59,399 nucleotides of DNA from a virus (Duplodnaviria; Caudoviricetes), in the IMG/VR virus record IMGVR_UViG_3300043399_001226, positions 1 through 59,399 of that record; one strand, given 5' to 3'. This document shows, piece after piece, positions 2,340 to 41,974 of the stretch. Under the pieces are notes generated by a model that was given only the letters and a program-made list of their open reading frames with translations, was not told the DNA's origin and did not search any database. Position 1 is the first letter of the stretch; every line of letters starts with the position of its first letter. The position numbers and the translations under genes are program-made.

Positions 2340-2688
2340 GGTCTAACAGCTCCTTTAATGTTCTTTTAGCTCTTTTTTTAGCCAGCATTTCATAAAACTT
2401 TTCAAGAGCATCTGTCCTTTCTTGATAGATGGAATTATCGACAGATATCTTTTGTGTGTTTTTAATTCGAGCTTGCCGTTTTTCTCTCTCTATTAACTTT
2501 AGTTTTACCTTGCTCATATATACAAGATTATGTTTTTTCATATAATGGTTTAAGACATTATATGACACTCCTAATTCTACGCATATTGCACCTTTTAAAG
2601 TTCTACCGCTATCTAGGAGTTTCTGGATATCGCTTGGTTTGTAATTTTCTTCAAGATACTTCAGGTTATTTGATGTTGGTTCGCTCAT
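2326..2688 (-). CDS. Hypothetical protein, possible HTH DNA-binding
   Basis: KGAICVELGVSYNVLNHYMKKH resembles an HTH. Confidence 0.5.
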   Translation of the reverse strand: MSEPTSNNLKYLEENYKPSDIQKLLDSGRTLKGAICVELGVSYNVLNHYMKKHNLVYMSKVKLKLIEREKRQARIKNTQKISVDNSIYQERTDALEKFYEMLAKKRAKRTLKELLDPYGD

Positions 2689-2861
2689 GATTAGTAGTAG
2701 AGATATTCTAAAACAAAACGCACCAACTTGAAAAAATCACTAACAAGTTGGCACGTTTAGGAAAAATGGTAATTTATGAAAAAAATCAAAACACAAGCCT
2801 CCCAGCTTGCTAGTTGAATGTAATTTAAATAATACCATAGGTCAATAAGGTTTTTATAGTG

Positions 2862-3098
2862 TTAAATTTCCAGAGCGTCCCTATAAAGCTGGATCAGGCT
2901 ATCTTCTTCGGCGAGAGCATCCTTATCCTTTTTCCTAAGTTTAAGTACGTGCTTGATGATTTTAACGTCAAACCCCATAGATTTGGCTTCATTATAAGCA
3001 TCTTTCAACAGATCGGCGGACTCTAAACGTTCCTCTTCTATGGTTTCTATTTTGCTAATAATTTGCTTTAGCTTACCTGCTTCTATAACTTCACTCAT
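2862..3098 (-). CDS. gapR: GapR/DUF2312-family nucleoid-associated protein
   Basis: LKQIISKIETIEEE...AYNEAKSMGFDVKIIKHVLKLRKKD...EEDSLIQLYRDAL matches the GapR pattern. Confidence 0.85.
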   Translation of the reverse strand: MSEVIEAGKLKQIISKIETIEEERLESADLLKDAYNEAKSMGFDVKIIKHVLKLRKKDKDALAEEDSLIQLYRDALEI

Positions 3099-3110
3099 AT
3101 TAAACTATGA

Positions 3111-3389
3111 TTATTTTTTATTAACGGCATCTTTTAACTTCTGTCCAACCTTAAACTTTGGTTGATTATAGGCAGCTATTTTTATCCTTTCCCTACTTTT
3201 TGGATTAATACCATCTCTTGCTTCAACTTTATTGACACTAAAATGACCAAAACCAACGAGGACTATTTCCTTACCCTCTTCCAGAGCATTAATTACCGAG
3301 GAAGTAAATATATCAATAGCTTTTTCTGCTTCTTTTTTTGTGCATCCATGCTGACTTGCAATGTGGTCGATAAATTCGTGTTTATTCAT
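3111..3389 (-). CDS. hup: HU family DNA-binding protein
   Basis: MNKHEFI...GFGHFSVNKVEARDGINPKSRERIKIAAYNQPKFKVGQKLKDAV. Confidence 0.95.
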   Translation of the reverse strand: MNKHEFIDHIASQHGCTKKEAEKAIDIFTSSVINALEEGKEIVLVGFGHFSVNKVEARDGINPKSRERIKIAAYNQPKFKVGQKLKDAVNKK

Positions 3390-3419
3390 TATTGTTACCT
3401 TTAAATTATGATTTTGAGA

Positions 3420-4286
3420 TTATTTTAATTTTTCTATTTGCTGGATGGTTAAACCAGTAAATTCTACTATTTCTTCTATAGGTTTATTTTTTGTTAGCAT
3501 AGCCTTGGCGATTTCTATATCCCTTTCAGCTTTCCCTTCAGCTTTTCCTTTAGCTTCAGCAGATATTATATAATCCCGACCCTTCATAGAATCCATGACG
3601 TAGCTATCGTAAACCTCTCTTTCCTGATTGGTCATTTTTAATATACTTAAACGCTGTGCTACTTTCTGCATGTAAGGAGACTTGAAGTCCTCTTTTACCT
3701 CAGAGTGTTTCATTAAATATAACCACTCGTCGATTTCCTCCTTTATGACATCATCAAATAAAGGAATTGAAACAATAAAATATTCAGGGAATATGTTATG
3801 AGCATCAAACGTATGCATCCCTCTATCTATTAAGTGAACGTCTATCGGATGCTTATGGTCTATCTCATGAAATATTACCTTACCGTGATGTAGCGGGGCT
3901 TTGGTATTTTCAAAAGGGAAGTATAGCAGGTTTATATGGAATACTTTCTTGATTTGCAAGTAATCCTGATTTGCCCCGAGATTATCAACGATTAGCCTTG
4001 AGGTATTAAATACGGCTTTGTTTAGAAACAAATCGGTATAAGCACGATCTATTTCTACTATATAATTGTTACCTTGTTCGTCTTCAACAATAACGTCTGC
4101 TATACTTCTTTTTAGATATCTACTTTCCTTATTGCTTTCGCCGTCAAGTAAGGCTCTAATCTTGACGGGCTTATATCCTTCTGACCCAAGTAGGGCGGAG
4201 ATAAACCCTTCAACTATTTCATAATCGCCTTTATCTTTTAGCAGATACTTGATAGCGTAATCAAAGCTAATTAGCGTTTTTTCCAT
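3420..4286 (-). CDS. Rpn-family recombination-promoting PD-(D/E)XK nuclease / putative transposase
   Basis: FDYAIKYLL, ADVIVED...IVEID, C-terminal AEGKAEGKAE repeat and IAKAML...IEEIVEFTGLT HTH tail. Confidence 0.85.
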   Translation of the reverse strand: MEKTLISFDYAIKYLLKDKGDYEIVEGFISALLGSEGYKPVKIRALLDGESNKESRYLKRSIADVIVEDEQGNNYIVEIDRAYTDLFLNKAVFNTSRLIVDNLGANQDYLQIKKVFHINLLYFPFENTKAPLHHGKVIFHEIDHKHPIDVHLIDRGMHTFDAHNIFPEYFIVSIPLFDDVIKEEIDEWLYLMKHSEVKEDFKSPYMQKVAQRLSILKMTNQEREVYDSYVMDSMKGRDYIISAEAKGKAEGKAERDIEIAKAMLTKNKPIEEIVEFTGLTIQQIEKLK

Positions 4287-4299
4287 ATAGATAAATAAT

Positions 4300-5571
4300 T
4301 TAAATAGATAACTTCATGCCAACTAGAGCTACAGTACCTTTCACCTTTCTTGCTTTTAAATTAGGATAAAACTCAGGCTTACCTTTAAGAGTATAGGCAT
4401 GTATTTCAGCATAAGGTTTTAGCCCTGGTGCAAGTATGTGGCTAATACCTAATTTTATCGAGTTTACTTTATTCTTGAATTTATCAGAAGCAAAATATTG
4501 TGAATAAATTGTTGTATCCTTATTATAAGTATAGGCAATACCTGCGTTGTAATAATAGGATTTATTACCCACCTTATGTAATTCTTTTGAAGTCAGGCTA
4601 CTTCCAAAAGAGCCGTAGCAGGCATTATACTTAAAATCACCTATTTTTAATTCCCCGCCGATATTATAAGCTTTTAAGCCACTTAATTTATATTCTAGCG
4701 GGTTCTTATCGTCTTTATTAGCAAACTTCTTAATTTTACCTGTAGCTTTACCATATTCACCAGTTAGAGCCAGTTTTAATTCCCCTTTTTCCATTATTTT
4801 TTGTTCAAACACTAAACCACCAGTAATAGCATCCTTAACAGACTTATCAATTTCAAATCTGTCTAGCGTTGTTTCTTCAATTGCATATTTTGTTATGCCG
4901 TCTGATTTTACTGATGATTTATCTATGCCTGTATTAGCAGAATCAGGGGTATAGGATATACCAAATTGTAGTTTACTAGAATCGGTTAAATCAAATTTAG
5001 GAGTATAATAATTTATCGTTCTTGGAGGCTCGCTGCTATAAGTTGCTGAGTCTAAGCCAGCAGTTATGGAATCACCAAGGATGGTTTCCTCTGAAGTTAA
5101 GAAAGACGGACTAGCCTTTGTATTTTGTTTGAGGTATTCAGTACTGGTTTTTATATAGTTTACAGGTATAGCTCCATCATTGATGGTCATGTTTCTTGCA
5201 ACTGGGATTGGTGAGCCTGCTTCAATTTTCCCAAACTCATGTTCTAAGAATACATGAGAACCATTATAATCATTGTTTACTTTTCTTTTTGTTGTAGGGA
5301 CTAAGACAATCTTAGCACCATAAGTAATATCATTTGCCGTATTTGATATGTTAGCAACAAAAGCTGAGTTATTAAAAAAAGCCATGCCTTTTTTATTAGC
5401 TGATATATTCTTCTCTGCTCCTTTTAATTTCTCTTGCTTGCTAAACCCGCTTTCAAAGACGGCAAAAGCACCAAGTTTTACATTTAAATCCGATACTACA
5501 GGCACTGGATCGCTACCTAATGCCGTGCTGTTTGTAAGTAAAACGCCAAGTAATAGTGATATTTTTTTCAT
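4300..5571 (-). CDS. Outer-membrane porin-like protein, copy B (inverted paralog of copy A)
   Basis: Same length (423 aa) and colinear, highly similar to 1013..2284. Confidence 0.75.
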   Translation of the reverse strand: MKKISLLLGVLLTNSTALGSDPVPVVSDLNVKLGAFAVFESGFSKQEKLKGAEKNISANKKGMAFFNNSAFVANISNTANDITYGAKIVLVPTTKRKVNNDYNGSHVFLEHEFGKIEAGSPIPVARNMTINDGAIPVNYIKTSTEYLKQNTKASPSFLTSEETILGDSITAGLDSATYSSEPPRTINYYTPKFDLTDSSKLQFGISYTPDSANTGIDKSSVKSDGITKYAIEETTLDRFEIDKSVKDAITGGLVFEQKIMEKGELKLALTGEYGKATGKIKKFANKDDKNPLEYKLSGLKAYNIGGELKIGDFKYNACYGSFGSSLTSKELHKVGNKSYYYNAGIAYTYNKDTTIYSQYFASDKFKNKVNSIKLGISHILAPGLKPYAEIHAYTLKGKPEFYPNLKARKVKGTVALVGMKLSI

Positions 5572-35734: not shown

Positions 35735-37814
35735 TTTTAATACCCATCACAAATTCTTCGTGTATTTCATTTAGAGTGCGATAACAATTATACTTAATAC
35801 TTAAACCATACTCATTTGTAATCGTTATCTTCTGTACCTCATCAAAAACCAGAGCTATATCACTTGAAATTTCATAAAACACATAGTTCTCACCTAGGAT
35901 TTCTGGGTAACAGAACCATTTATAACCTACCCCTTGAAAGTAATACTCACCATAAATGTTATCAATAAGCTCTTTAGCTCTGAGTATACTAAGGGGATTC
36001 GTACTACTATCTGAAACCCAGTCCATTATATCGTCGGTATATTCGCCGTAATATATTTTATACTTAAAACCAAGAGTAATCAGGTTCTGGAAACTAGTAC
36101 CGGTAGTATCATATGCTAAAAGAGTAAAATCAATATTTTGCAGGACGTTATAAGTAACATCTAAGGTCTGAAATTCAAAAGGCGAACCTAAAACTTTTTC
36201 TACAACAATTTCATTATCTTGTAGTAAGGTTATTGAATCTGCCTCTAGCAATAGGTCATTTTCTATTGAATAGACGGCAGATAGCACTTCGGATTTTAAA
36301 TTATAACCGATTTCTACGGTTTTAATAAACTCTCCTCCCCCTTGCTTTTGTATAGAAAAAGTAGAAAAGTAAGGTAATCCAACTCCGTATAATAATTTTG
36401 TCATCAATGTTTTAAAATCGGTATTCTTAAACCTTGTGCCTTTAGGTAATCCACCGAGTTTAAAAGGCATTGGTTTAGAATTAGTATAAGATACACTCTC
36501 TCTACTGCCTCCTCCACCGCCACCATAAAAATTCTTAATACCTACCCGTCCTGCATTAATAATGCGTTCATCCGTAGTAATAATAAGATCGCCAAGCTGG
36601 TCAATTTCTGCCGACTTTATGCCGTTTCCTCTATCCCCCTTATCTCCCTTGATACTATCGCCCTTATCCCCTTTGTCGCCTTTTTTACCCTTTGTTTTCT
36701 CAGCTACGGCAATAAGCTCTGTTACGGCAGAATTAACTTGTTCCTGCAAAGCTTCTGCGGCTTTATCAACTAACGTAGTTACTTTTTGATTAACACTTGC
36801 AACAATGAGGTCAATATTGGCATCCCTGCCATCTTGTCCATCCGCTCCATCTTTCCCGTCCTTTGCTTTTGGTAACTTAGCAAATCCTTGCTTGATAAGA
36901 TTTTGAGTGTACCCTTGCAACTCTTCTTTATAACTAGTAGATAAATCATTGATTAAGCTTTTGATTTTAGCAGTTTCTTCTTGTAGATCAGAAGATAGGG
37001 ATGCGTTTAATTCCTTGCTGGATGCAGCAATTAAGTCTTGAATAGAGACTTGAAGTTTATCGTAGTCCTCGCGAGCGTGCTGTTTTAATTTTTCTTCTAA
37101 AATAGCGGTGATTTGTTGGTGGTCAGCATTCCTGCCGTCTTTCCCATCTTTAACATCTGGAATATTAGCAAGTATATATTCTTGTAATTCCTCCTTTATA
37201 GCATCAAGCGGTATAGCTTCAGCATCTTTGCCGTCTTGTCCGTCTATTCCGTCTCTGACACTGGGAATATTAGCAAGTATATACTGTTGTAACTCTCGAG
37301 TTAAAGCTTCTACGTCAATATCCTTGGCGTCTTGCCCGTCTCTTCCATCTTTTCCGTCCTTTGGAACGGGAATCTTCAATCTGCTAAATTCTTTCTGTAC
37401 CTGTTCTTGCAGGATTTTAAGTAACTTCTCTTCTAGCTCCCTTACAACTTCTTCTTCTCTAATCGCAGTAGCAGTTGGAACATTTCCTATATCCTGTAAT
37501 CTTTCTTCAAGCTTTTTAGTCAAACTCTGCTTAATATTCTCCAGCTCTGTCTTTACTTTCTTACTTGAATTCCGTTGCTTGACTTTTTTATCCAGAATAT
37601 CGATGCGTTTAATTAGCTCTTCATTTACATTGTCATTAAGAATAGCGGGAATGTCTAACGAAAATCTTTGCTTAAAACCATTTCTAAACTCTACTTCTAA
37701 AGCGGAATCCTTATAAACTATATTGGTAATAAATTGTTGCTTATCAAATTTTTGTACTTTCTTAGCTATCTTCCCAAGAGTAGCAACAACAAGAGCGTCA
37801 GACATTTTACTCAT
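35727..37814 (-). CDS. Coiled-coil/collagen-like repeat protein, probably virion-associated
   Basis: Repeated (K/R)DGKDG.DG.DA units and GDKGDKG; coupled to the portal gene. Confidence 0.7.
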   Translation of the reverse strand: MSKMSDALVVATLGKIAKKVQKFDKQQFITNIVYKDSALEVEFRNGFKQRFSLDIPAILNDNVNEELIKRIDILDKKVKQRNSSKKVKTELENIKQSLTKKLEERLQDIGNVPTATAIREEEVVRELEEKLLKILQEQVQKEFSRLKIPVPKDGKDGRDGQDAKDIDVEALTRELQQYILANIPSVRDGIDGQDGKDAEAIPLDAIKEELQEYILANIPDVKDGKDGRNADHQQITAILEEKLKQHAREDYDKLQVSIQDLIAASSKELNASLSSDLQEETAKIKSLINDLSTSYKEELQGYTQNLIKQGFAKLPKAKDGKDGADGQDGRDANIDLIVASVNQKVTTLVDKAAEALQEQVNSAVTELIAVAEKTKGKKGDKGDKGDSIKGDKGDRGNGIKSAEIDQLGDLIITTDERIINAGRVGIKNFYGGGGGGSRESVSYTNSKPMPFKLGGLPKGTRFKNTDFKTLMTKLLYGVGLPYFSTFSIQKQGGGEFIKTVEIGYNLKSEVLSAVYSIENDLLLEADSITLLQDNEIVVEKVLGSPFEFQTLDVTYNVLQNIDFTLLAYDTTGTSFQNLITLGFKYKIYYGEYTDDIMDWVSDSSTNPLSILRAKELIDNIYGEYYFQGVGYKWFCYPEILGENYVFYEISSDIALVFDEVQKITITNEYGLSIKYNCYRTLNEIHEEFVMGIKNG

Positions 37815-39226
37815 AAATTATTGTAGAGTTGTTGGAGTTTATCGTTAACTACCGCTTCCTCCTTTTTAGCCAGTCTTTGTTTTTCTCTGGATTCTGCTTG
37901 CATCATAACTTTATCAAGCATATATACATCGTCATCGGTAAAATTTTCTTTCTGAAGAGGCTTTAGCTTAATATTTTCCTTAAATTCGCCGCTACCAAAC
38001 CGCTCTTGCCAGCATTCCGCAGGGTCAATAGCTCCTCTATCTATATATCCCCAGTCTATTTTTGCATGCTTCTCTTTTAACTCCCCGCGTTCTAAATCCG
38101 TCTGCTCTACAAGTGAGTTAAAACTCCAACTGCTGTCCTTATCTCCTTTATATTCTTTCTGTAAAAGTATAAGATTTATTAACTTGTCTATTACATACTC
38201 CATCTCATCAGTGCGATACGCAGAAACTAAATCGTAGTAGTTTCTCATATCACTAACTCCCGTCGAGTTTAACCCTCCTGGAGATTGCCCGAATAGTCTG
38301 GTCATAGGATACCCAGTTGCACCGCAGATAGCCTGTTCAAATTTAGTCCATAAATCACTTAAACCCGTAACAGTACTAGCTTTTTTCTCGTAATCTTCCT
38401 TATTTGCATCGATTACTATCATATTTGACCCTGATCTTGAGAGGTCTAGCCCTTCAATTCTTTGTCTTATATCACTTTCGCCGTTTTGCCTTATCATCTT
38501 TTGATCAAGGTCATTAAGCTTTATAATCACCTGAATAAAATCCTGTACTATCTCTACAGAGGCTACGCTTGTAAGGTCATAATGCTTTAGAACTTCATAA
38601 CAGGATACAAAGACCGAATCGCCCCACCCTTGGTTAGTTACCCTCCTTAAATTATCAACAATCAAGCCGTCTAAAATAATACAACGGCTATAATGTACTT
38701 TTAAAATTGGCTTCTCGTTGCCTACGTTCGGAGGTTGTATGCTATAGTAAGCAGGCTTCGAGTAATTTGGATGATACGGATCGGTAACTAAATCATCTAC
38801 ATTCCAGAAGACCCAGTGTTTATCGTAAACTTTTAAATTAGCAATTTTATTTATCCTCTTCTCATTTAACGGCTCTTCTAAGCTGAGGCCGTCATCAATG
38901 ATAAGTAAAATTAAAGAACCTCCGTATAGCCTAGAAAAATAACCAGCTTCTTTTAAGACATTATTAACTTTTAGCCTTTTAAACTCTTTTTTAAGATCAT
39001 CATTTGCAGAATTAAAAAATCCGCTACGTACCGCATCATCGACAAGGCACTGCACAATCCTACGTGCTAAGCCGTTACCGCTATATAAACTACTTAGTTC
39101 GCTATAGATTAGTTTTTTATATCCTTTAACTTGAGCTTGTCCTGTGCGGCTTAAACTAGAACCTATATTGGTTAATCTATTCTGCCAGTGGTCCTGTCTA
39201 AAAACTTTATCAAGAAATCTTTTCAT
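37811..39226 (-). CDS. Portal protein (DUF1073 family)
   Basis: SRLYGGS, VHYSR, GWGDSV, ATGYPMTRLFGQSPGGLNSTG.SDMRNYYD. Confidence 0.92.
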   Translation of the reverse strand: MKRFLDKVFRQDHWQNRLTNIGSSLSRTGQAQVKGYKKLIYSELSSLYSGNGLARRIVQCLVDDAVRSGFFNSANDDLKKEFKRLKVNNVLKEAGYFSRLYGGSLILLIIDDGLSLEEPLNEKRINKIANLKVYDKHWVFWNVDDLVTDPYHPNYSKPAYYSIQPPNVGNEKPILKVHYSRCIILDGLIVDNLRRVTNQGWGDSVFVSCYEVLKHYDLTSVASVEIVQDFIQVIIKLNDLDQKMIRQNGESDIRQRIEGLDLSRSGSNMIVIDANKEDYEKKASTVTGLSDLWTKFEQAICGATGYPMTRLFGQSPGGLNSTGVSDMRNYYDLVSAYRTDEMEYVIDKLINLILLQKEYKGDKDSSWSFNSLVEQTDLERGELKEKHAKIDWGYIDRGAIDPAECWQERFGSGEFKENIKLKPLQKENFTDDDVYMLDKVMMQAESREKQRLAKKEEAVVNDKLQQLYNNL

Positions 39227-39336: not shown

Positions 39337-41592
39337 CTAATAGAATAATGCATTGTGTTTCCATTTACCATAATTTGCCATTTTATCCTTCATTAAACGC
39401 TCACAGGCATATCTTGTCGCATCAATACAATTATGTGTAACAATCCCATTTTCAATAGTATAATTATGATCGTTCTCCACTTCTAAATTGTAAACATCTT
39501 GATAACCGCATTTCTTAATTTCGATTACTGTAAGCGAAGGTAGCTCTGCAACTAAAACTGCATGTTTGGATCTGAGCGTATTTATTTGATGTAAATTCTG
39601 CTCTACAAATAACACATTCTTTTTGAACGTTATCCACTCCGCTTTTTCTTCTAAATGCTGATTTACAAGCGTTGCTACAAAACTTTCCTTTATTAACTTT
39701 TCCTTTTTGCAAAGAATATATTTTTTTACAATATCTACATTCGTTATCAATTTTTTGTTCAATTGATGGCAAAAGAGATTTAAACCAATGTTCTTTATGC
39801 CACTTACGCCCCTCTTCAGATTGATGCCAAACCACTGTAAGAGGTCTGATGTTATCAAGGTTAGCTTTAAGTTTTTTTCTTGTGGCCTCGCTAATGTATT
39901 TGCCATGATGTTTGCTATGCTCCGTTGGTGAAATACAAACAAGGTTTGTAATATCATTATTAAGTTTATTATGGTCTTTGTGATGAATATGGTAATTTTC
40001 TGGTATTTCACCTTTATAAAACTTATAAACATATCTATGTAAAAACTCGCCTGTGGCACTGTGTTGATAGTAATTAGTTCTAATATTTTTATTAAATCTC
40101 TCTCCTTGAAAATATACTTGTTTAGACATAAAATTAACTTCCTTTTTTGCTCTATATTGTATCGCAAGGCATCAGATAAAACTATTAATTTATCATCTTT
40201 TTCTATATTGAAAAGAGGTTGCCACCCTTTACGTACTGTTAAAAACATATGATCTTTAGTACAGGTAATAGATCTACCATTTGACAATATACATTTAAAA
40301 ACTTGTGCATCTCGCCTTGTTAAACGTACATTAAAATATTTATTCTTTCTGACCGTTCCGTCATCAGCAACACTCCTTACCATTCCCGTTGTCCCAACTA
40401 AGTCACGTATCTTAAATTGACCATTATCAGTATCAACTAAAGTATCGCCTACTAGACAATGATTGTTAGCATCTACAATATTATTAGTAATATCTCCGCT
40501 TCTCTCATCTACTTTGTAAGAATAATTTGAAAATTCCCTTATAGTATTGATACATCTCTCATGTATTATTATTTTATCAAAACTTTTAAGGTATTCTATA
40601 CCATCTTCAATACTACCTTTTCCTTTTTCAACTGGTTTAATACTATAACCTTGTCTATCAATAAATGATATGGTTTCAGGTCTGGAATTATCTGCATATA
40701 TAGTATATCTCATCAAATCAGGTAAACAATTCTCTAAAAACTTACCCGTCTCGTCAATTTCTAAATGTTTTTTATAAGCTTCGTGAGTAATGTACAAACA
40801 GTTATTATCTATATAACATCTAATACCAGCAGTCGGGTCTTGTGAAAAACCAAAGTCCAAGCCAAAATATTTATGTGTATTTTCAGGTTCTTCAAATTTA
40901 TCAATTATCCAGTGTACATCCTGTTTAAATACTTGAGCTTCCGAGTTCTTTAAACATTCCCCCTCCCAAACATGTCTATACATTCCATAATCCTTAATTT
41001 TTAAAGCTTCCATCTGCTCCTTTAAAACATCAGGAAAGTAAGGGTTGTCCATATAATTGACTTTTACAACATAGGAATTTTTAGGAGATTCATCGCTTAA
41101 AAAAGTTCTATATAATATATCGCTTTCATGTTTAGGGTTGAATGTACACCATATTTCGCTATTTGGTTCGCGAATCGTCGGCACTATCACTTGCCAACTT
41201 TCAAAGCTTAAAGTATCGGCTTCTTCAATCCATAATATACTAACACCTGCCATTGATTTAACGCTATCAATGTTGTGCCTTAATCCTTTAAATATAAATC
41301 TGCTACCCGAATAAGAACTAGTAATTTCATCTTTTGTAATTTCAAAATACTCACTCAGTTCCATAGCTTCTATTCTTTGTTTTAGTAATGAGTGCACACT
41401 TTCTTTAATAGAGTTCTGAAACTCTCTACCACAAAGAATTAAATGTTTGTGGTATAAAGATATGCCAATCAAGCTATCAGCAACTGCATAAGACTTACCG
41501 CTACCACGACCGCCATAAATTATTTTATAACGATAAGGCTTGAATAATTCCTTTTGCCATCTTTGAATGTTAACTACTTTTTTCTTTGTCAT
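39337..41592 (-). CDS. terL: Terminase large subunit (PBSX-type) with a 343-aa intein
   Basis: GGRGSGKS Walker A, WIEEA Walker B, GLDFGFSQDP nuclease motif; predicted spliced product 408 aa with junction NNH-CIDATRY. Confidence 0.95.
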   Translation of the reverse strand: MTKKKVVNIQRWQKELFKPYRYKIIYGGRGSGKSYAVADSLIGISLYHKHLILCGREFQNSIKESVHSLLKQRIEAMELSEYFEITKDEITSSYSGSRFIFKGLRHNIDSVKSMAGVSILWIEEADTLSFESWQVIVPTIREPNSEIWCTFNPKHESDILYRTFLSDESPKNSYVVKVNYMDNPYFPDVLKEQMEALKIKDYGMYRHVWEGECLKNSEAQVFKQDVHWIIDKFEEPENTHKYFGLDFGFSQDPTAGIRCYIDNNCLYITHEAYKKHLEIDETGKFLENCLPDLMRYTIYADNSRPETISFIDRQGYSIKPVEKGKGSIEDGIEYLKSFDKIIIHERCINTIREFSNYSYKVDERSGDITNNIVDANNHCLVGDTLVDTDNGQFKIRDLVGTTGMVRSVADDGTVRKNKYFNVRLTRRDAQVFKCILSNGRSITCTKDHMFLTVRKGWQPLFNIEKDDKLIVLSDALRYNIEQKRKLILCLNKYIFKERDLIKILELITINTVPQASFYIDMFISFIKVKYQKITIFITKTIINLIMILQTLFVFHQRSIANIMANTLARPQEKNLKLTLITSDLLQWFGINLKRGVSGIKNIGLNLFCHQLNKKLITNVDIVKKYILCKKEKLIKESFVATLVNQHLEEKAEWITFKKNVLFVEQNLHQINTLRSKHAVLVAELPSLTVIEIKKCGYQDVYNLEVENDHNYTIENGIVTHNCIDATRYACERLMKDKMANYGKWKHNALFY
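39430..40458 (-). mobile_element. Intein in TerL
   Basis: Block A CLVGDTLV, block B ITCTKDHMF, blocks F/G VYNLEVENDHNYTIENGIVTHN followed by Cys+1. Confidence 0.93.
39515..40129 (-). CDS. HNH homing endonuclease with C-terminal zinc fingers, nested in the intein in the -1 frame
   Basis: LHRYVY...IHHKDHNKLNNDITNL..IS..EHSKHH; CRYC..FCSNAC and CVIC..TCSFSC; AAGGAAG RBS 8 nt upstream of the ATG. Confidence 0.9.
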   Translation of the reverse strand: MSKQVYFQGERFNKNIRTNYYQHSATGEFLHRYVYKFYKGEIPENYHIHHKDHNKLNNDITNLVCISPTEHSKHHGKYISEATRKKLKANLDNIRPLTVVWHQSEEGRKWHKEHWFKSLLPSIEQKIDNECRYCKKIYSLQKGKVNKGKFCSNACKSAFRRKSGVDNVQKECVICRAEFTSNKYAQIQTCSFSCRATFAYSNRN

Positions 41593-41974
41593 CCTGAACT
41601 ACATAAGTAAGAATAGGAGGAGATCCTTTAGTTGTTATTTCATGTTGTTGTTTCTCACTCCATCCAGCTTGCGTCTTTAGATAAAATATTGTTGCTGTTG
41701 TATCGCCTTCCCTCATTTTAGACCAAAGCAATCCAGCAGCTTCTTTTATCCCTGTTGCTTTTCCTTTTTTATAGGCTCGGAAAACTCGGATATTTCTTTT
41801 TTTTAATTCATGAAACGTATCTTCTGAAAAGCCAAAATAATTGGCTATCTGCTCTATAGTCATGTCCTTAGCAAGAGTTTCAAGTTCGGTTATTTGCTTA
41901 TCAGTCAAAACAATAGGATTTCTTCCTCTTTTCTTCTGTTGATTACTATCTAAATTTTTACATTTTCCCTTCAT
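41570..41974 (-). CDS. terS: Terminase small subunit
   Basis: HTH (TIEQIANYFGFSEDTF), AYKKGK, GDTTATIFYLKTQAGW; overlaps the terL start. Confidence 0.8.
   Translation of the reverse strand: MKGKCKNLDSNQQKKRGRNPIVLTDKQITELETLAKDMTIEQIANYFGFSEDTFHELKKRNIRVFRAYKKGKATGIKEAAGLLWSKMREGDTTATIFYLKTQAGWSEKQQHEITTKGSPPILTYVVQDDKEKSS

What the first reader, a model, noticed from the sequence alone, without database searches (positions are those of the whole stretch)
39430..40458. Intein whose homing endonuclease is a separate gene overprinted in another reading frame
Seen: the 343-aa TerL intein has normal splicing blocks, but its in-frame middle has no endonuclease motifs. A complete 204-aa HNH/zinc-finger ORF (40129-39515) with its own RBS and ATG lies in the -1 frame and stops just before block F. 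Both frames stay open for over 200 codons in AT-rich DNA, which implies selection on both. Established: canonical intein endonucleases are in-frame domains. Inference: a free-standing HNH gene invaded a mini-intein and uses protein splicing to remove the nonsense peptide, uncoupling nuclease expression from TerL. Similar non-canonical phage inteins may already be reported, so novelty needs a literature check.
Basis: partly seen in the sequence, partly recalled or inferred. Interest (0 to 1): 0.85.

Follow-up and report, generated by a model that had tools for sequence, protein, structure and literature searches.

The report
Terminase intein with out-of-frame HNH gene
This phage's DNA-packaging gene carries a self-splicing protein insert (intein), and a complete HNH homing-nuclease gene is written inside it in a second reading frame; the layout is real and under selection, but it has been reported before and is common in phages.

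Summary
terL (39337-41592, minus strand, 751 aa) holds a 343-aa class-1 intein (39430-40458). An intact 204-aa HNH_3/zinc-ribbon gene (39515-40129) with a Shine-Dalgarno sequence and ATG fills the endonuclease slot in the -1 frame.

The terL frame stays open across it against odds of 0.5% or less. Contigs from four other studies show no indels. Relatives with 84-86% identical TerL have the empty site NH|CID.

Of the 80 best IMG/VR relatives of the HNH, 49 sit in the same frame relation inside a long host ORF. 41 of 50 host ORFs (the window's own among them) hit Intein_splicing and 37 hit a terminase N-terminal family. None of 28 free-standing relatives has that frame open.

The terL-frame middle has no confident fold. 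Its sequence is barely more conserved than the HNH frame forces.

The kind is in print. Brucella phage terL has an out-of-frame intein HNH (PMC4422536; NC_019446). Actinophage inteins have a frame-3 endonuclease (bioRxiv 10.1101/2025.01.02.630785).

This scan has noted the same layout on other DNA many times. Verdict: a real new member of a known kind, of moderate interest.

The parts
39337..41592 (-). terL precursor ORF, 751 aa (378-aa N-extein + 343-aa intein + 30-aa C-extein; predicted spliced TerL 408 aa)
   Evidence: ORF listed. Pfam Terminase_3 4.4e-48, Terminase_3C 7.5e-18, Intein_splicing 1.8e-12. Intein-less alleles of about 410 aa in relatives.
40459..41592 (-). N-extein (TerL aa 1-378), ending ...VDANNH
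   Evidence: 84-86% identical to the intein-less TerL of L011-L014.
39430..40458 (-). Class-1 intein, 343 aa: Cys1, block B T67-x-x-H70, C-terminal His-Asn, +1 Cys
   Evidence: C1, H70 and N343 are invariant in 40 related inteins; T67 is nearly invariant (at least 90%). The model matches mini-inteins: Ssp DnaB E 5.3e-08, Npu DnaE TMt 0.85-0.86.
40159..40458 (-). N-terminal splicing domain (intein aa 1-100, blocks A and B)
   Evidence: Ten-residue block pLDDT 67-98 over aa 1-100, beta-strand HINT fold. 4 of 4 natural variants here are synonymous in the terL frame.
39515..40129 (-). HNH_3 / double zinc-ribbon homing-endonuclease gene, 204 aa, in the -1 frame of terL. The same bases read in the terL frame give an unstructured linker of about 205 aa.
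   Evidence: Pfam HNH_3 2.4e-15. All 19 family-invariant residues are kept. Model pLDDT 94.9. I-HmuI Z 8.5, rmsd 2.1 A, 72 residues aligned. In the terL frame, ten-residue block pLDDT is 38-52 from about intein aa 131 to 300.
40138..40144 (-). Shine-Dalgarno-like AAGGAAG, ending 8 nt before the HNH ATG
   Evidence: Sequence; SD scan (window row). Function inferred.
40156..40161 (-). -10-like TACAAT, 26 nt before the HNH ATG, written in the intein codons R-Y-N. Candidate internal promoter.
   Evidence: 27 of 50 embedded relatives have such a hexamer within 45 nt of the HNH start, against 5.6 +/- 2.1 in control windows. The generic scan did not list it (no -35 match). Function inferred.
39430..39561 (-). 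C-terminal splicing domain (intein aa 300-343, blocks F and G, ...NGIVTHN). Its first 47 nt overlap the 3' end of the HNH gene.
   Evidence: Ten-residue block pLDDT 78-98 from aa 301. 4 of 4 natural variants here are synonymous in the terL frame.
39337..39429 (-). C-extein (CIDATRYACERLMK..., 30 aa) plus stop codon
   Evidence: Intein-less relatives read NH|CIDALRYALERLMK across the same point.

Best explanation
This is a composite homing element in the nuclease motif of the phage's large terminase gene. It is made of a class-1 mini-intein with a complete, separately translated HNH_3/zinc-ribbon homing-endonuclease gene in its endonuclease slot, in the -1 frame.

Proposed working:
1. terL is translated straight through as a 751-aa precursor. 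The roughly 205 codons that overlap the HNH gene give an unstructured, Ile/Leu-rich linker.
2. The two halves of the HINT domain fold around this linker and splice out all 343 residues. That leaves a 408-aa TerL joined NNH-CID.
3. The HNH protein is made on its own from the internal AAGGAAG-ATG, possibly from an internal -10-like promoter.
4. In a mixed infection the HNH nicks or cuts intein-less terL alleles near the empty site. Repair then copies intein plus HNH into them. The inserted intein interrupts the site and so protects its carrier.

Shown here: both reading frames; an intact intein and an intact HNH by residues and by fold; no indels in independent assemblies; an empty site in close relatives; the same two-frame design in 49 other viral contigs and 4 isolated phages; purging of stops from the host frame.

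Inferred: splicing, separate translation, the cleavage target, and current mobility of this particular copy.
For: Anatomy.

Openness beyond chance: (0.52%, 0 of 20,000, and 0.135%).

HNH intact: all 19 columns invariant in 32 homologues are kept; pLDDT 94.9; aa 6-78 align to the homing endonuclease I-HmuI with Z 8.5, rmsd 2.1 A, 72 residues, above I-PpoI at Z 5.3.

Intein intact: C1, H70 and N343 are invariant and T67 nearly invariant in 40 inteins. The model's two ends form a HINT fold that matches mini-inteins, with 48 PDB matches at E<=0.001. 8 of 8 natural variants in the splicing domains are synonymous in the terL frame.

Not an artefact: no indels in contigs from 4 studies. The stretch is held by runs of 13 studies. 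The record is a complete genome with terminal repeats.

Presence/absence: L011-L013 (86% TerL identity), L014 (84%) and L017 (64%) have intein-less terL reading NH|C/L/G-ID. They have no HNH or intein homologue in the fetched flanks; 12 loci searched gave one hit at E 0.55.

Recurrence:
- The HNH homologue sits at offset 2 inside terL inteins of phages Highwayman, phiCDHM19, TJE1 and LS06-2018-MD07 and of contigs L018 and L020.
- 49 of the 80 best IMG/VR relatives have a long host ORF in frame HNH+1 across the HNH.
- Of 50 host ORFs (the window's own plus those 49), 41 hit Intein_splicing, 20 Terminase_6N and 17 Terminase_3.

Selection on openness: 0 of 28 free-standing relatives have that frame open, with a mean of 8.1 stops and a range of 3-15.

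Mobility in the family: L018 and L020 differ at 5 of 894 intein bases against 62 of 1176 extein bases, Fisher p 9e-11.

Own expression signals: an SD-like motif before the start in 18 of 50. A -10-like hexamer within 45 nt in 27 of 50, against 5.6 +/- 2.1 in controls.
Against: There is no experimental or RNA evidence for this phage: no splicing, no HNH protein, no cleavage.

The nearest HNH relative is only 48-50% identical. No recent transfer of this particular copy can be shown, and it may no longer be mobile.

Only three natural variants fall in the dual-coding stretch, so frame-specific selection within this lineage is untested. Two are synonymous in the HNH frame and one is synonymous in the terL frame. 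All three come from a low-depth contig that may belong to another organism.

The -10-like hexamer has no matching -35. The generic promoter scan found no more sites than shuffles (19 against 14.9 +/- 3.8).

The linker is about 42% Ile+Leu+Val+Phe, which might hinder folding of the precursor.

Foldseek alone gave no PDB match at E<=0.001 for the HNH model.

The low divergence of the L018/L020 intein could partly reflect double coding constraint rather than recent transfer.
Confidence: 0.85

Rival explanations
1. The HNH gene is a relic that no longer acts as a nuclease. Only the terL frame is under selection, because the phage needs spliced terminase, and the HNH frame is open by recent descent.
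For: No close relative of this copy exists: the best identity is 48-50%. So no recent homing is visible. One low-depth contig of run X16 appears to skip 123 bases (40028-40150), which include the HNH start, as expected for decay of the nuclease.
Against: All 19 family-invariant residues, the full length, the ATG and the SD are kept. The model is very confident, pLDDT 94.9. A dead ORF of 204 codons at 33% GC should collect stops: in the window, open alternative-frame runs elsewhere reach at most 102 codons.
Confidence: 0.07
2. The HNH protein has been taken over for DNA packaging alongside terminase, like the HNH proteins encoded next to terminase genes, and does not serve homing.
For: Free-standing relatives lie beside terS/terL or the portal gene in phages BP10 and PAE1. 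The Brucella phage paper raises a functional link between HNH and terminase (PMC4422536, passage read).
Against: The closest terL relatives (84-86% identity) have neither the intein nor any HNH homologue within about 4 kb, so packaging in this lineage does not need it. The catalytic domain is closest to the homing endonuclease I-HmuI. Patchy presence at conserved active-site motifs is the pattern of homing elements.
Confidence: 0.04
3. The nuclease is made as a fusion. A -1 ribosomal slip on the A-run (CAA AAA AGG, just before the HNH ATG) would join the TerL N-extein and N-terminal intein half to the HNH.
For: A run of six A followed by AGG lies in the terL frame 14-22 nt before the ATG. The HNH frame is open for 14 codons upstream of the ATG.
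Against: The A-run is part of a good SD-ATG pair. Relatives have quite different sequences there, many with a -10-like element directly before the start. All homologues found are stand-alone-sized, and no longer fused form was found (weak evidence).
Confidence: 0.02
4. Assembly or sequencing error: two compensating indels hide a normal in-frame HNH intein.
For: The window is a metagenome-assembled record.
Against: There are no inserted or deleted letters in contigs of 4 runs from 4 studies, including contigs that bridge both ends of the HNH ORF. The same frame offset occurs in 4 isolated, separately sequenced phages and in 49 other viral contigs. The ORF has its own SD and ATG.
Confidence: 0.01

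Closest known systems
Brucella phage Tb/Pr (Perisivirus) terL intein with an out-of-frame HNH gene (GenBank NC_019446: terL 'intein present' 2347..4893, HNH 3170..3856; Virol J 2015, PMC4422536)
   Same: A terL intein holds a separate HNH ORF on the same strand in another frame while the terL frame stays open. [quoted passage not shown] TerL hits Intein_splicing at 2.6e-15.
   Different: The frame relation differs: offset 1, not 2. The nuclease family and domain order differ: Pfam HNH PF01844 at the C-terminus after zinc ribbons, and only a 47-residue match to the window's HNH (E 5e-06). The intein sits in the N-terminal ATPase part of TerL, not in the nuclease motif.
[quoted passage not shown]
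   Same: The architecture and the frame relation are the same, and terL is among the host genes. Their model is also the same: a free-standing endonuclease gene invades an intein, and the in-frame middle has no recognisable structure (sections 8, 15 and 28 read).
   Different: Their out-of-frame nuclease is endonuclease VII-like (IPR004211), and their HNH inteins are in frame. Here the nuclease is HNH_3 with two C-terminal zinc ribbons. The phage is AT-rich (33% GC), and its terL resembles Acinetobacter phage terL only weakly. Their supplementary tables could not be opened, so whether an HNH_3 case is listed there is unknown.
Fractured genes: split inteins with a free-standing endonuclease gene between the halves (Dassa et al. 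2009, PMC2677866; abstract seen in the search listing)
   Same: A free-standing homing-endonuclease gene sits in the endonuclease slot of an intein. Vibrio phage 1.238.A carries a relative of this HNH between a terL N-part and a 'hint domain protein'.
   Different: In the window the host frame has no stop and no restart, so one precursor is made and cis-splicing is expected.
ShiLan-type insertions: out-of-frame HNH hidden in phage DNA methylase genes (Arsenault et al. 2025, PMC11855218)
   Same: An HNH gene with flanking zinc fingers lies in the third frame of a host gene whose own frame stays open (abstract and passages read).
   Different: The ShiLan insertion has no splicing domain. Here the nonsense stretch is flanked by a complete intein that can remove it.
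I-HmuI, the HNH homing endonuclease of a phage SPO1 group I intron (PDB 1u3e)
   Same: It is the best structural match of the catalytic domain: Z 8.5, rmsd 2.1 A, 72 residues, 21% identity.
   Different: By its entry title and my recall, I-HmuI is intron-encoded. It lacks the two C-terminal zinc ribbons of this family. Foldseek E was only 0.45.

Membership tests
Class-1 intein (HINT splicing domain) | N-terminal Cys/Ser, block B T-x-x-H, C-terminal His-Asn, and Cys/Ser/Thr as first C-extein residue | tested here: met
   C1; T67 and H70...THN343|C. C1, H70 and N343 are invariant and T67 is at least 90% conserved in 40 related inteins.
Class-1 intein (HINT splicing domain) | HINT fold formed by the N- and C-terminal parts | tested here: met
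   Pfam Intein_splicing 4.4e-15. Model ends with ten-residue block pLDDT 67-98. 48 PDB matches at E<=0.001, the top ones mini-inteins; Npu DnaE TMt 0.85-0.86.
Class-1 intein (HINT splicing domain) | In-frame insertion at a conserved host site, with intein-less alleles that read straight across it | tested here: met
   L011-L014 and L017 read ...NH|(C/L/G)ID..RY.. with no insert.
Class-1 intein (HINT splicing domain) | Protein splicing actually occurs | not testable with these tools
   Inferred only: terL is essential, the genome is complete, and the phage is present in runs of 13 studies.
HNH (His-Me finger) homing endonuclease, Pfam HNH_3 | HNH catalytic motif and metal-binding residues | tested here: met
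   HNH_3 2.4e-15. H49, H50, N58, N62, H71, H75 and eight Cys that are invariant or nearly invariant (at least 90%) in the family are kept. I-HmuI Z 8.5.
HNH (His-Me finger) homing endonuclease, Pfam HNH_3 | Patchy presence among close relatives of the host gene | tested here: met
   Absent from the 5 closest terL relatives. In the pair L018/L020 the intein is far less diverged than the exteins.
HNH (His-Me finger) homing endonuclease, Pfam HNH_3 | Cuts or nicks the empty allele at or near the insertion site | not testable with these tools
   Needs an enzyme assay on the L011-type site.
Non-canonical intein with same-strand out-of-frame endonuclease (Gosselin et al. 2025; Brucella phage Tb) | Complete nuclease ORF between splicing blocks B and F, on the same strand in another frame, with the host frame open | tested here: met
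   The same design occurs in 49 of the 80 best IMG/VR relatives.
Non-canonical intein with same-strand out-of-frame endonuclease (Gosselin et al. 2025; Brucella phage Tb) | Nuclease of the endonuclease VII-like type, as in the actinophage cases | tested here: not met
   Pfam gives HNH_3 only, for the window and for 6 relatives. This lowers 'same sub-type', not 'same kind'.
Fractured gene / split intein (Dassa et al. 2009) | Host gene broken into two ORFs around the endonuclease gene | tested here: not met
   There is one uninterrupted 751-codon terL frame. A split form exists in Vibrio phage 1.238.A.

The most novel reading that the evidence does not exclude
The HNH_3/zinc-ribbon gene, together with its own start signals written in intein codons, is a stable cassette and not a short-lived intermediate. 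It moves among different terL inteins: three or more insertion points in two terminase families were seen here.

It is almost always held in the one frame relation (host = HNH+1) that can be cleared of stops, and it does not seem to resolve into an in-frame fusion. No fused form was found. 49 of 50 embedded cases use that frame. Free-standing genes carry about 8 stops in that frame against about 24 in the other.

This would make dual coding a long-term evolutionary solution that lets the nuclease be expressed apart from late terL expression.
Probability: 0.4. Interest if true: 0.5.

Novelty: new member of a known kind. Interest (0 to 1): 0.35.

Why it matters
Annotation. Such genes are usually labelled simply 'terminase large subunit'. 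That was so for Highwayman, phiCDHM19, TJE1 and LS06. The label hides both an intein and a nuclease gene.

Biology. The case supports the 'splicing first, free-standing endonuclease invades later' view of how mobile inteins arise. It shows that a mini-intein can carry about 200 residues of nonsense peptide. It is also a clean natural example of selection for an open frame without selection on the peptide.

Practical use. The empty site in the 86%-identical relatives gives a ready substrate for testing the nuclease. The intein is a candidate for tolerating large unstructured inserts.

None of this is new in kind. The arrangement is in print, and this scan has met it repeatedly.

Tried and rejected
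I used tblastn on phage records and the search for related loci instead.

A single-protein scan of viral contigs found only one distant locus; the alignment-based scan worked.

Nucleotide search of phage records found no near relative of this terL: 23 records, none covering 80% or more, best about 65% identity over 13% of the query.

Frame-specific dN/dS could not be done. Among 52 embedded HNH genes only two pairs exceed 70% nucleotide identity, one identical and one 99.7%. Only 3 natural variants fall in the window's overlap.

No RNA holder is listed for the stretch, so expression is untested.

The generic promoter scan gave no excess over shuffles, and no terminator was found.

Foldseek gave no PDB match at E<=0.001 for the HNH model; VIA-align on the same candidates gave I-HmuI at Z 8.5.

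The search for fused forms of 358-2000 aa found none among 157 candidates. The tool itself calls this weak evidence.

Earlier notes near this place on the same genome concern other features and did not bear on this one.

A group I intron reading was not pursued, because complete intein blocks flank the insert and the frame is open.

Supplementary files of the papers are closed. The supplementary tables of bioRxiv 10.1101/2025.01.02.630785 may list nuclease types that bear on novelty.

Searches behind 'not in print as a family'.
Full report
WHAT IS THERE. The window is a complete 59,399-base virus record with direct terminal repeats and 32.9% GC. On the minus strand, a terS-like gene (41570-41974) overlaps the start of a 751-codon ORF at 39337-41592, and a 471-aa ORF follows at 37811-39226. 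That ORF matches the region next to terL, where a portal gene would be expected, at 47% identity in related contigs.

Pfam reads the 751-aa protein as Terminase_3 (4.4e-48), Terminase_3C (7.5e-18) and Intein_splicing (1.8e-12). The intein runs from Cys379 to Asn721, which is 39430-40458 and 343 aa. The junctions are NNH|CLVGDTLV and IVTHN|CIDATRY.

Read in the terL frame, the 343 residues hit only Intein_splicing and no nuclease family. A 204-codon ATG ORF at 39515-40129 lies at offset 2 from terL, i.e. the -1 frame or 'frame 3'. It hits HNH_3 at 2.4e-15. AAGGAAG ends 8 nt before its ATG. Its stop lies inside the strand that leads into block F, so its last 15 or so codons overlap structured intein sequence.

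IS IT MORE THAN CHANCE, AND IS IT REAL DNA? The terL frame has no stop across the 205 HNH codons. Shuffling synonymous codons within the HNH ORF reached this in 0.52% of 20,000 trials. Resampling codons from the window's own usage never did (mean 8.35 stops). Shuffling codon order did in 0.135%. In the window's 43 ORFs of at least 150 aa, the next-longest open alternative-frame runs are 102 and 50 codons.

The stretch is held by public runs of 13 studies. I laid the Logan contigs of four runs from four studies. None showed an inserted or deleted letter. One contig matches 39330-40144 exactly, and two bridge the HNH start.

BOTH PRODUCTS LOOK FUNCTIONAL. The HNH protein keeps all 19 columns that are invariant in an alignment of 32 homologues. 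It folds with mean pLDDT 94.9. Residues 6-78 align to the homing endonuclease I-HmuI at Z 8.5, rmsd 2.1 A over 72 residues, above I-PpoI at Z 5.3. Foldseek alone was weak, at E 0.45.

The intein keeps C1, T67-x-x-H70 and the terminal HN with +1 Cys. C1, H70 and N343 are invariant in 40 related inteins. In the model of the in-frame 343 residues, ten-residue block pLDDT is 67-98 over residues 1-100 and 78-98 from 301 onwards. These parts form a HINT fold that matches mini-inteins: Ssp DnaB E 5.3e-08, Npu DnaE TMt 0.85-0.86, and 48 matches at E<=0.001.

Confidence falls through residues 101-130 (blocks 64, 54, 53). From about 131 to 300, block pLDDT is 38-52. The low-confidence stretch lies within the part that overlaps the HNH gene.

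Natural variants agree with this picture. 8 of 8 in the splicing domains are synonymous in the terL frame.

EMPTY SITE IN CLOSE RELATIVES. A scan of viral contigs with the N-extein gave 15 loci. The five closest are L011-L013 at 86%, L014 at 84% and L017 at 64%. All have terL alleles of about 410 aa that read ...NH|CIDALRY..., or L or G in place of C, straight across the predicted junction. None has a relative of the HNH or the intein in the fetched flanks: 12 loci searched gave one hit at E 0.55.

A LARGE FAMILY WITH THE SAME DESIGN. The HNH has 88 other homologues at up to 50% identity, all 178-295 aa, which is the size of stand-alone genes.

In phage records, tblastn found 74 records. In Acinetobacter phage Highwayman, Clostridium phage phiCDHM19, Tetrasphaera phage TJE1 and Rhodobacteraceae phage LS06-2018-MD07, the match lies under a CDS annotated only as terminase large subunit. 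The same holds for phiCD119, which is annotated in pieces. In each, the match is at offset 2, inside an intein.

Free-standing copies lie beside terS or terL in phages BP10 and PAE1. Vibrio phage 1.238.A has the split form: terL N-part, HNH, then a 'hint domain protein'.

An alignment-based scan of IMG/VR found 195 relatives and kept the best 80. In 49 of these a long ORF in frame HNH+1 covers the HNH. In 1 (L103) the other frame does. In 30 no frame does. Of 50 host ORFs (the window's own plus those 49), 41 hit Intein_splicing, 20 Terminase_6N and 17 Terminase_3. 39 of the 49 begin with Cys, end with Asn and are longer than 290 aa.

The insertion points differ: NNH|C here, HYIDA|C in Highwayman, and WGFA|C in L018 and L020.

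WHAT SELECTION ACTS ON. I took 28 free-standing relatives, having dropped L056 and L099 as truncated and L103 as the odd-frame case. Their HNH+1 frame has a mean of 8.1 stops (range 3-15) and is never open. Their HNH+2 frame has a mean of 23.6 stops, with a minimum of 13. So the embedded genes have been cleared of stops. The near-constant frame relation may owe as much to feasibility as to common descent.

Across 50 embedded genes, mean pairwise identity is 0.341 in the HNH frame. It is 0.189 in the host frame, against 0.181 +/- 0.0012 when synonymous HNH codons are shuffled. The host-frame peptide is thus almost free to vary, provided it stays open.

L018 and L020 differ at 5 of 894 intein bases against 62 of 1176 extein bases, p 9e-11. 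This fits recent transfer, though double coding constraint may contribute.

EXPRESSION SIGNALS. An SD-like motif precedes a plausible start in 18 of 50 embedded genes. A -10-like hexamer lies within 45 nt of the start in 27 of 50, against 5.6 +/- 2.1 (maximum 11) in control windows. It lies within 12 nt in 10, against 1.9 +/- 1.3. For 3 of the 50 no start was found.

In the window, TACAAT (40161-40156) is written in the codons R-Y-N, 26 nt before the ATG. It has no -35 match, and the generic scan shows no excess of sites. Separate expression of the nuclease is therefore plausible but not shown.

WHAT IS KNOWN. [quoted passage not shown] The GenBank record NC_019446 annotates terL 'intein present' with an overlapping HNH CDS. 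That HNH is at offset 1, belongs to Pfam HNH rather than HNH_3, has its zinc ribbons first, and shares only the HNH motif with ours.

[quoted passage not shown] It also describes antisense LAGLIDADG and VSR-like cases, and it proposes invasion of inteins by free-standing endonuclease genes.

Related work: out-of-frame HNH genes in methylases without a splicing domain (PMC11855218, abstract and passages), and fractured genes with split inteins (PMC2677866, abstract in listings).

Three full-text searches found no paper that describes the HNH_3/zinc-ribbon family in terL inteins as a family. I could not open supplements.

This scan has noted the same layout on other DNA. 126 earlier notes in at least 111 genomes hold the search words, and several follow-ups reached the same reading. 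I checked two of their leads myself: the Brucella precedent, and the promoter-like element before the HNH start.

VERDICT. The element is a real, probably functional, composite of a class-1 mini-intein and a separately read HNH homing-endonuclease gene. It is a new member of a known, and in fact common, kind. The nuclease family and host range differ from the published cases. Splicing, separate translation and the cleavage target remain to be tested.

Noticed in passing
L031, L063, L065, L081, L082, L093, L094 and others (45 nt before the HNH start); window 40156-40161: Many embedded HNH genes have TGATATAAT-type extended -10 elements 5-8 nt before their ATG, which suggests leaderless transcripts. 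These elements are written in conserved intein codons (…L-R-Y-N/D-D…). The window has the related GATACAAT 26 nt upstream, plus an SD.
   Followed up: partly
window 40028-40150 (run X16): One low-depth contig (depth 2.9, 10 other letters in 90) skips 123 bases, i.e. 41 codons, so the terL frame is kept. The skipped part includes the SD and the first 34 HNH codons. It may be a decaying-nuclease variant, or it may come from another organism.
   Followed up: no
window 39388 and downstream (minus-strand direction), compared with L012: With the intein left out, nucleotide homology to L012 (79.5%) runs across the junction and stops 41 nt after it. The TerL N-extein is 86% identical, but the ORF downstream of terL only 47% and terS 57%. 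The intein thus sits next to a mosaic boundary.
   Followed up: partly
L103:3-1442 and 682-1245: This is the single exception among the 80 loci. It is a terL intein (GNDHA|CLAADT...VVSHN|CDALRY) whose host frame is HNH+2 rather than HNH+1. Its HNH lacks the second zinc ribbon (187 aa) and may be decaying.
   Followed up: partly
L053 (intein end ...ANGMIAAQ|C): One related terL intein ends in Gln instead of Asn before the +1 Cys.
   Followed up: no
L002, L003, L004, L007, L009 (GenBank phage records): Highwayman, phiCDHM19, TJE1 and LS06-2018-MD07 annotate terL as one plain CDS, with neither the intein nor the HNH gene marked. phiCD119 splits the gene into 'ter2' and a 'hypothetical protein'.
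   Followed up: yes
window 40130-40171: The window's intein has an extra S-D-A-L-R-Y-N-I-E segment after the usual '...KDDKLIVL' strand. In Highwayman the similar D-A-L-R-Y-N-D is itself that strand. It might be a footprint of a cassette taken from another intein.
   Followed up: no
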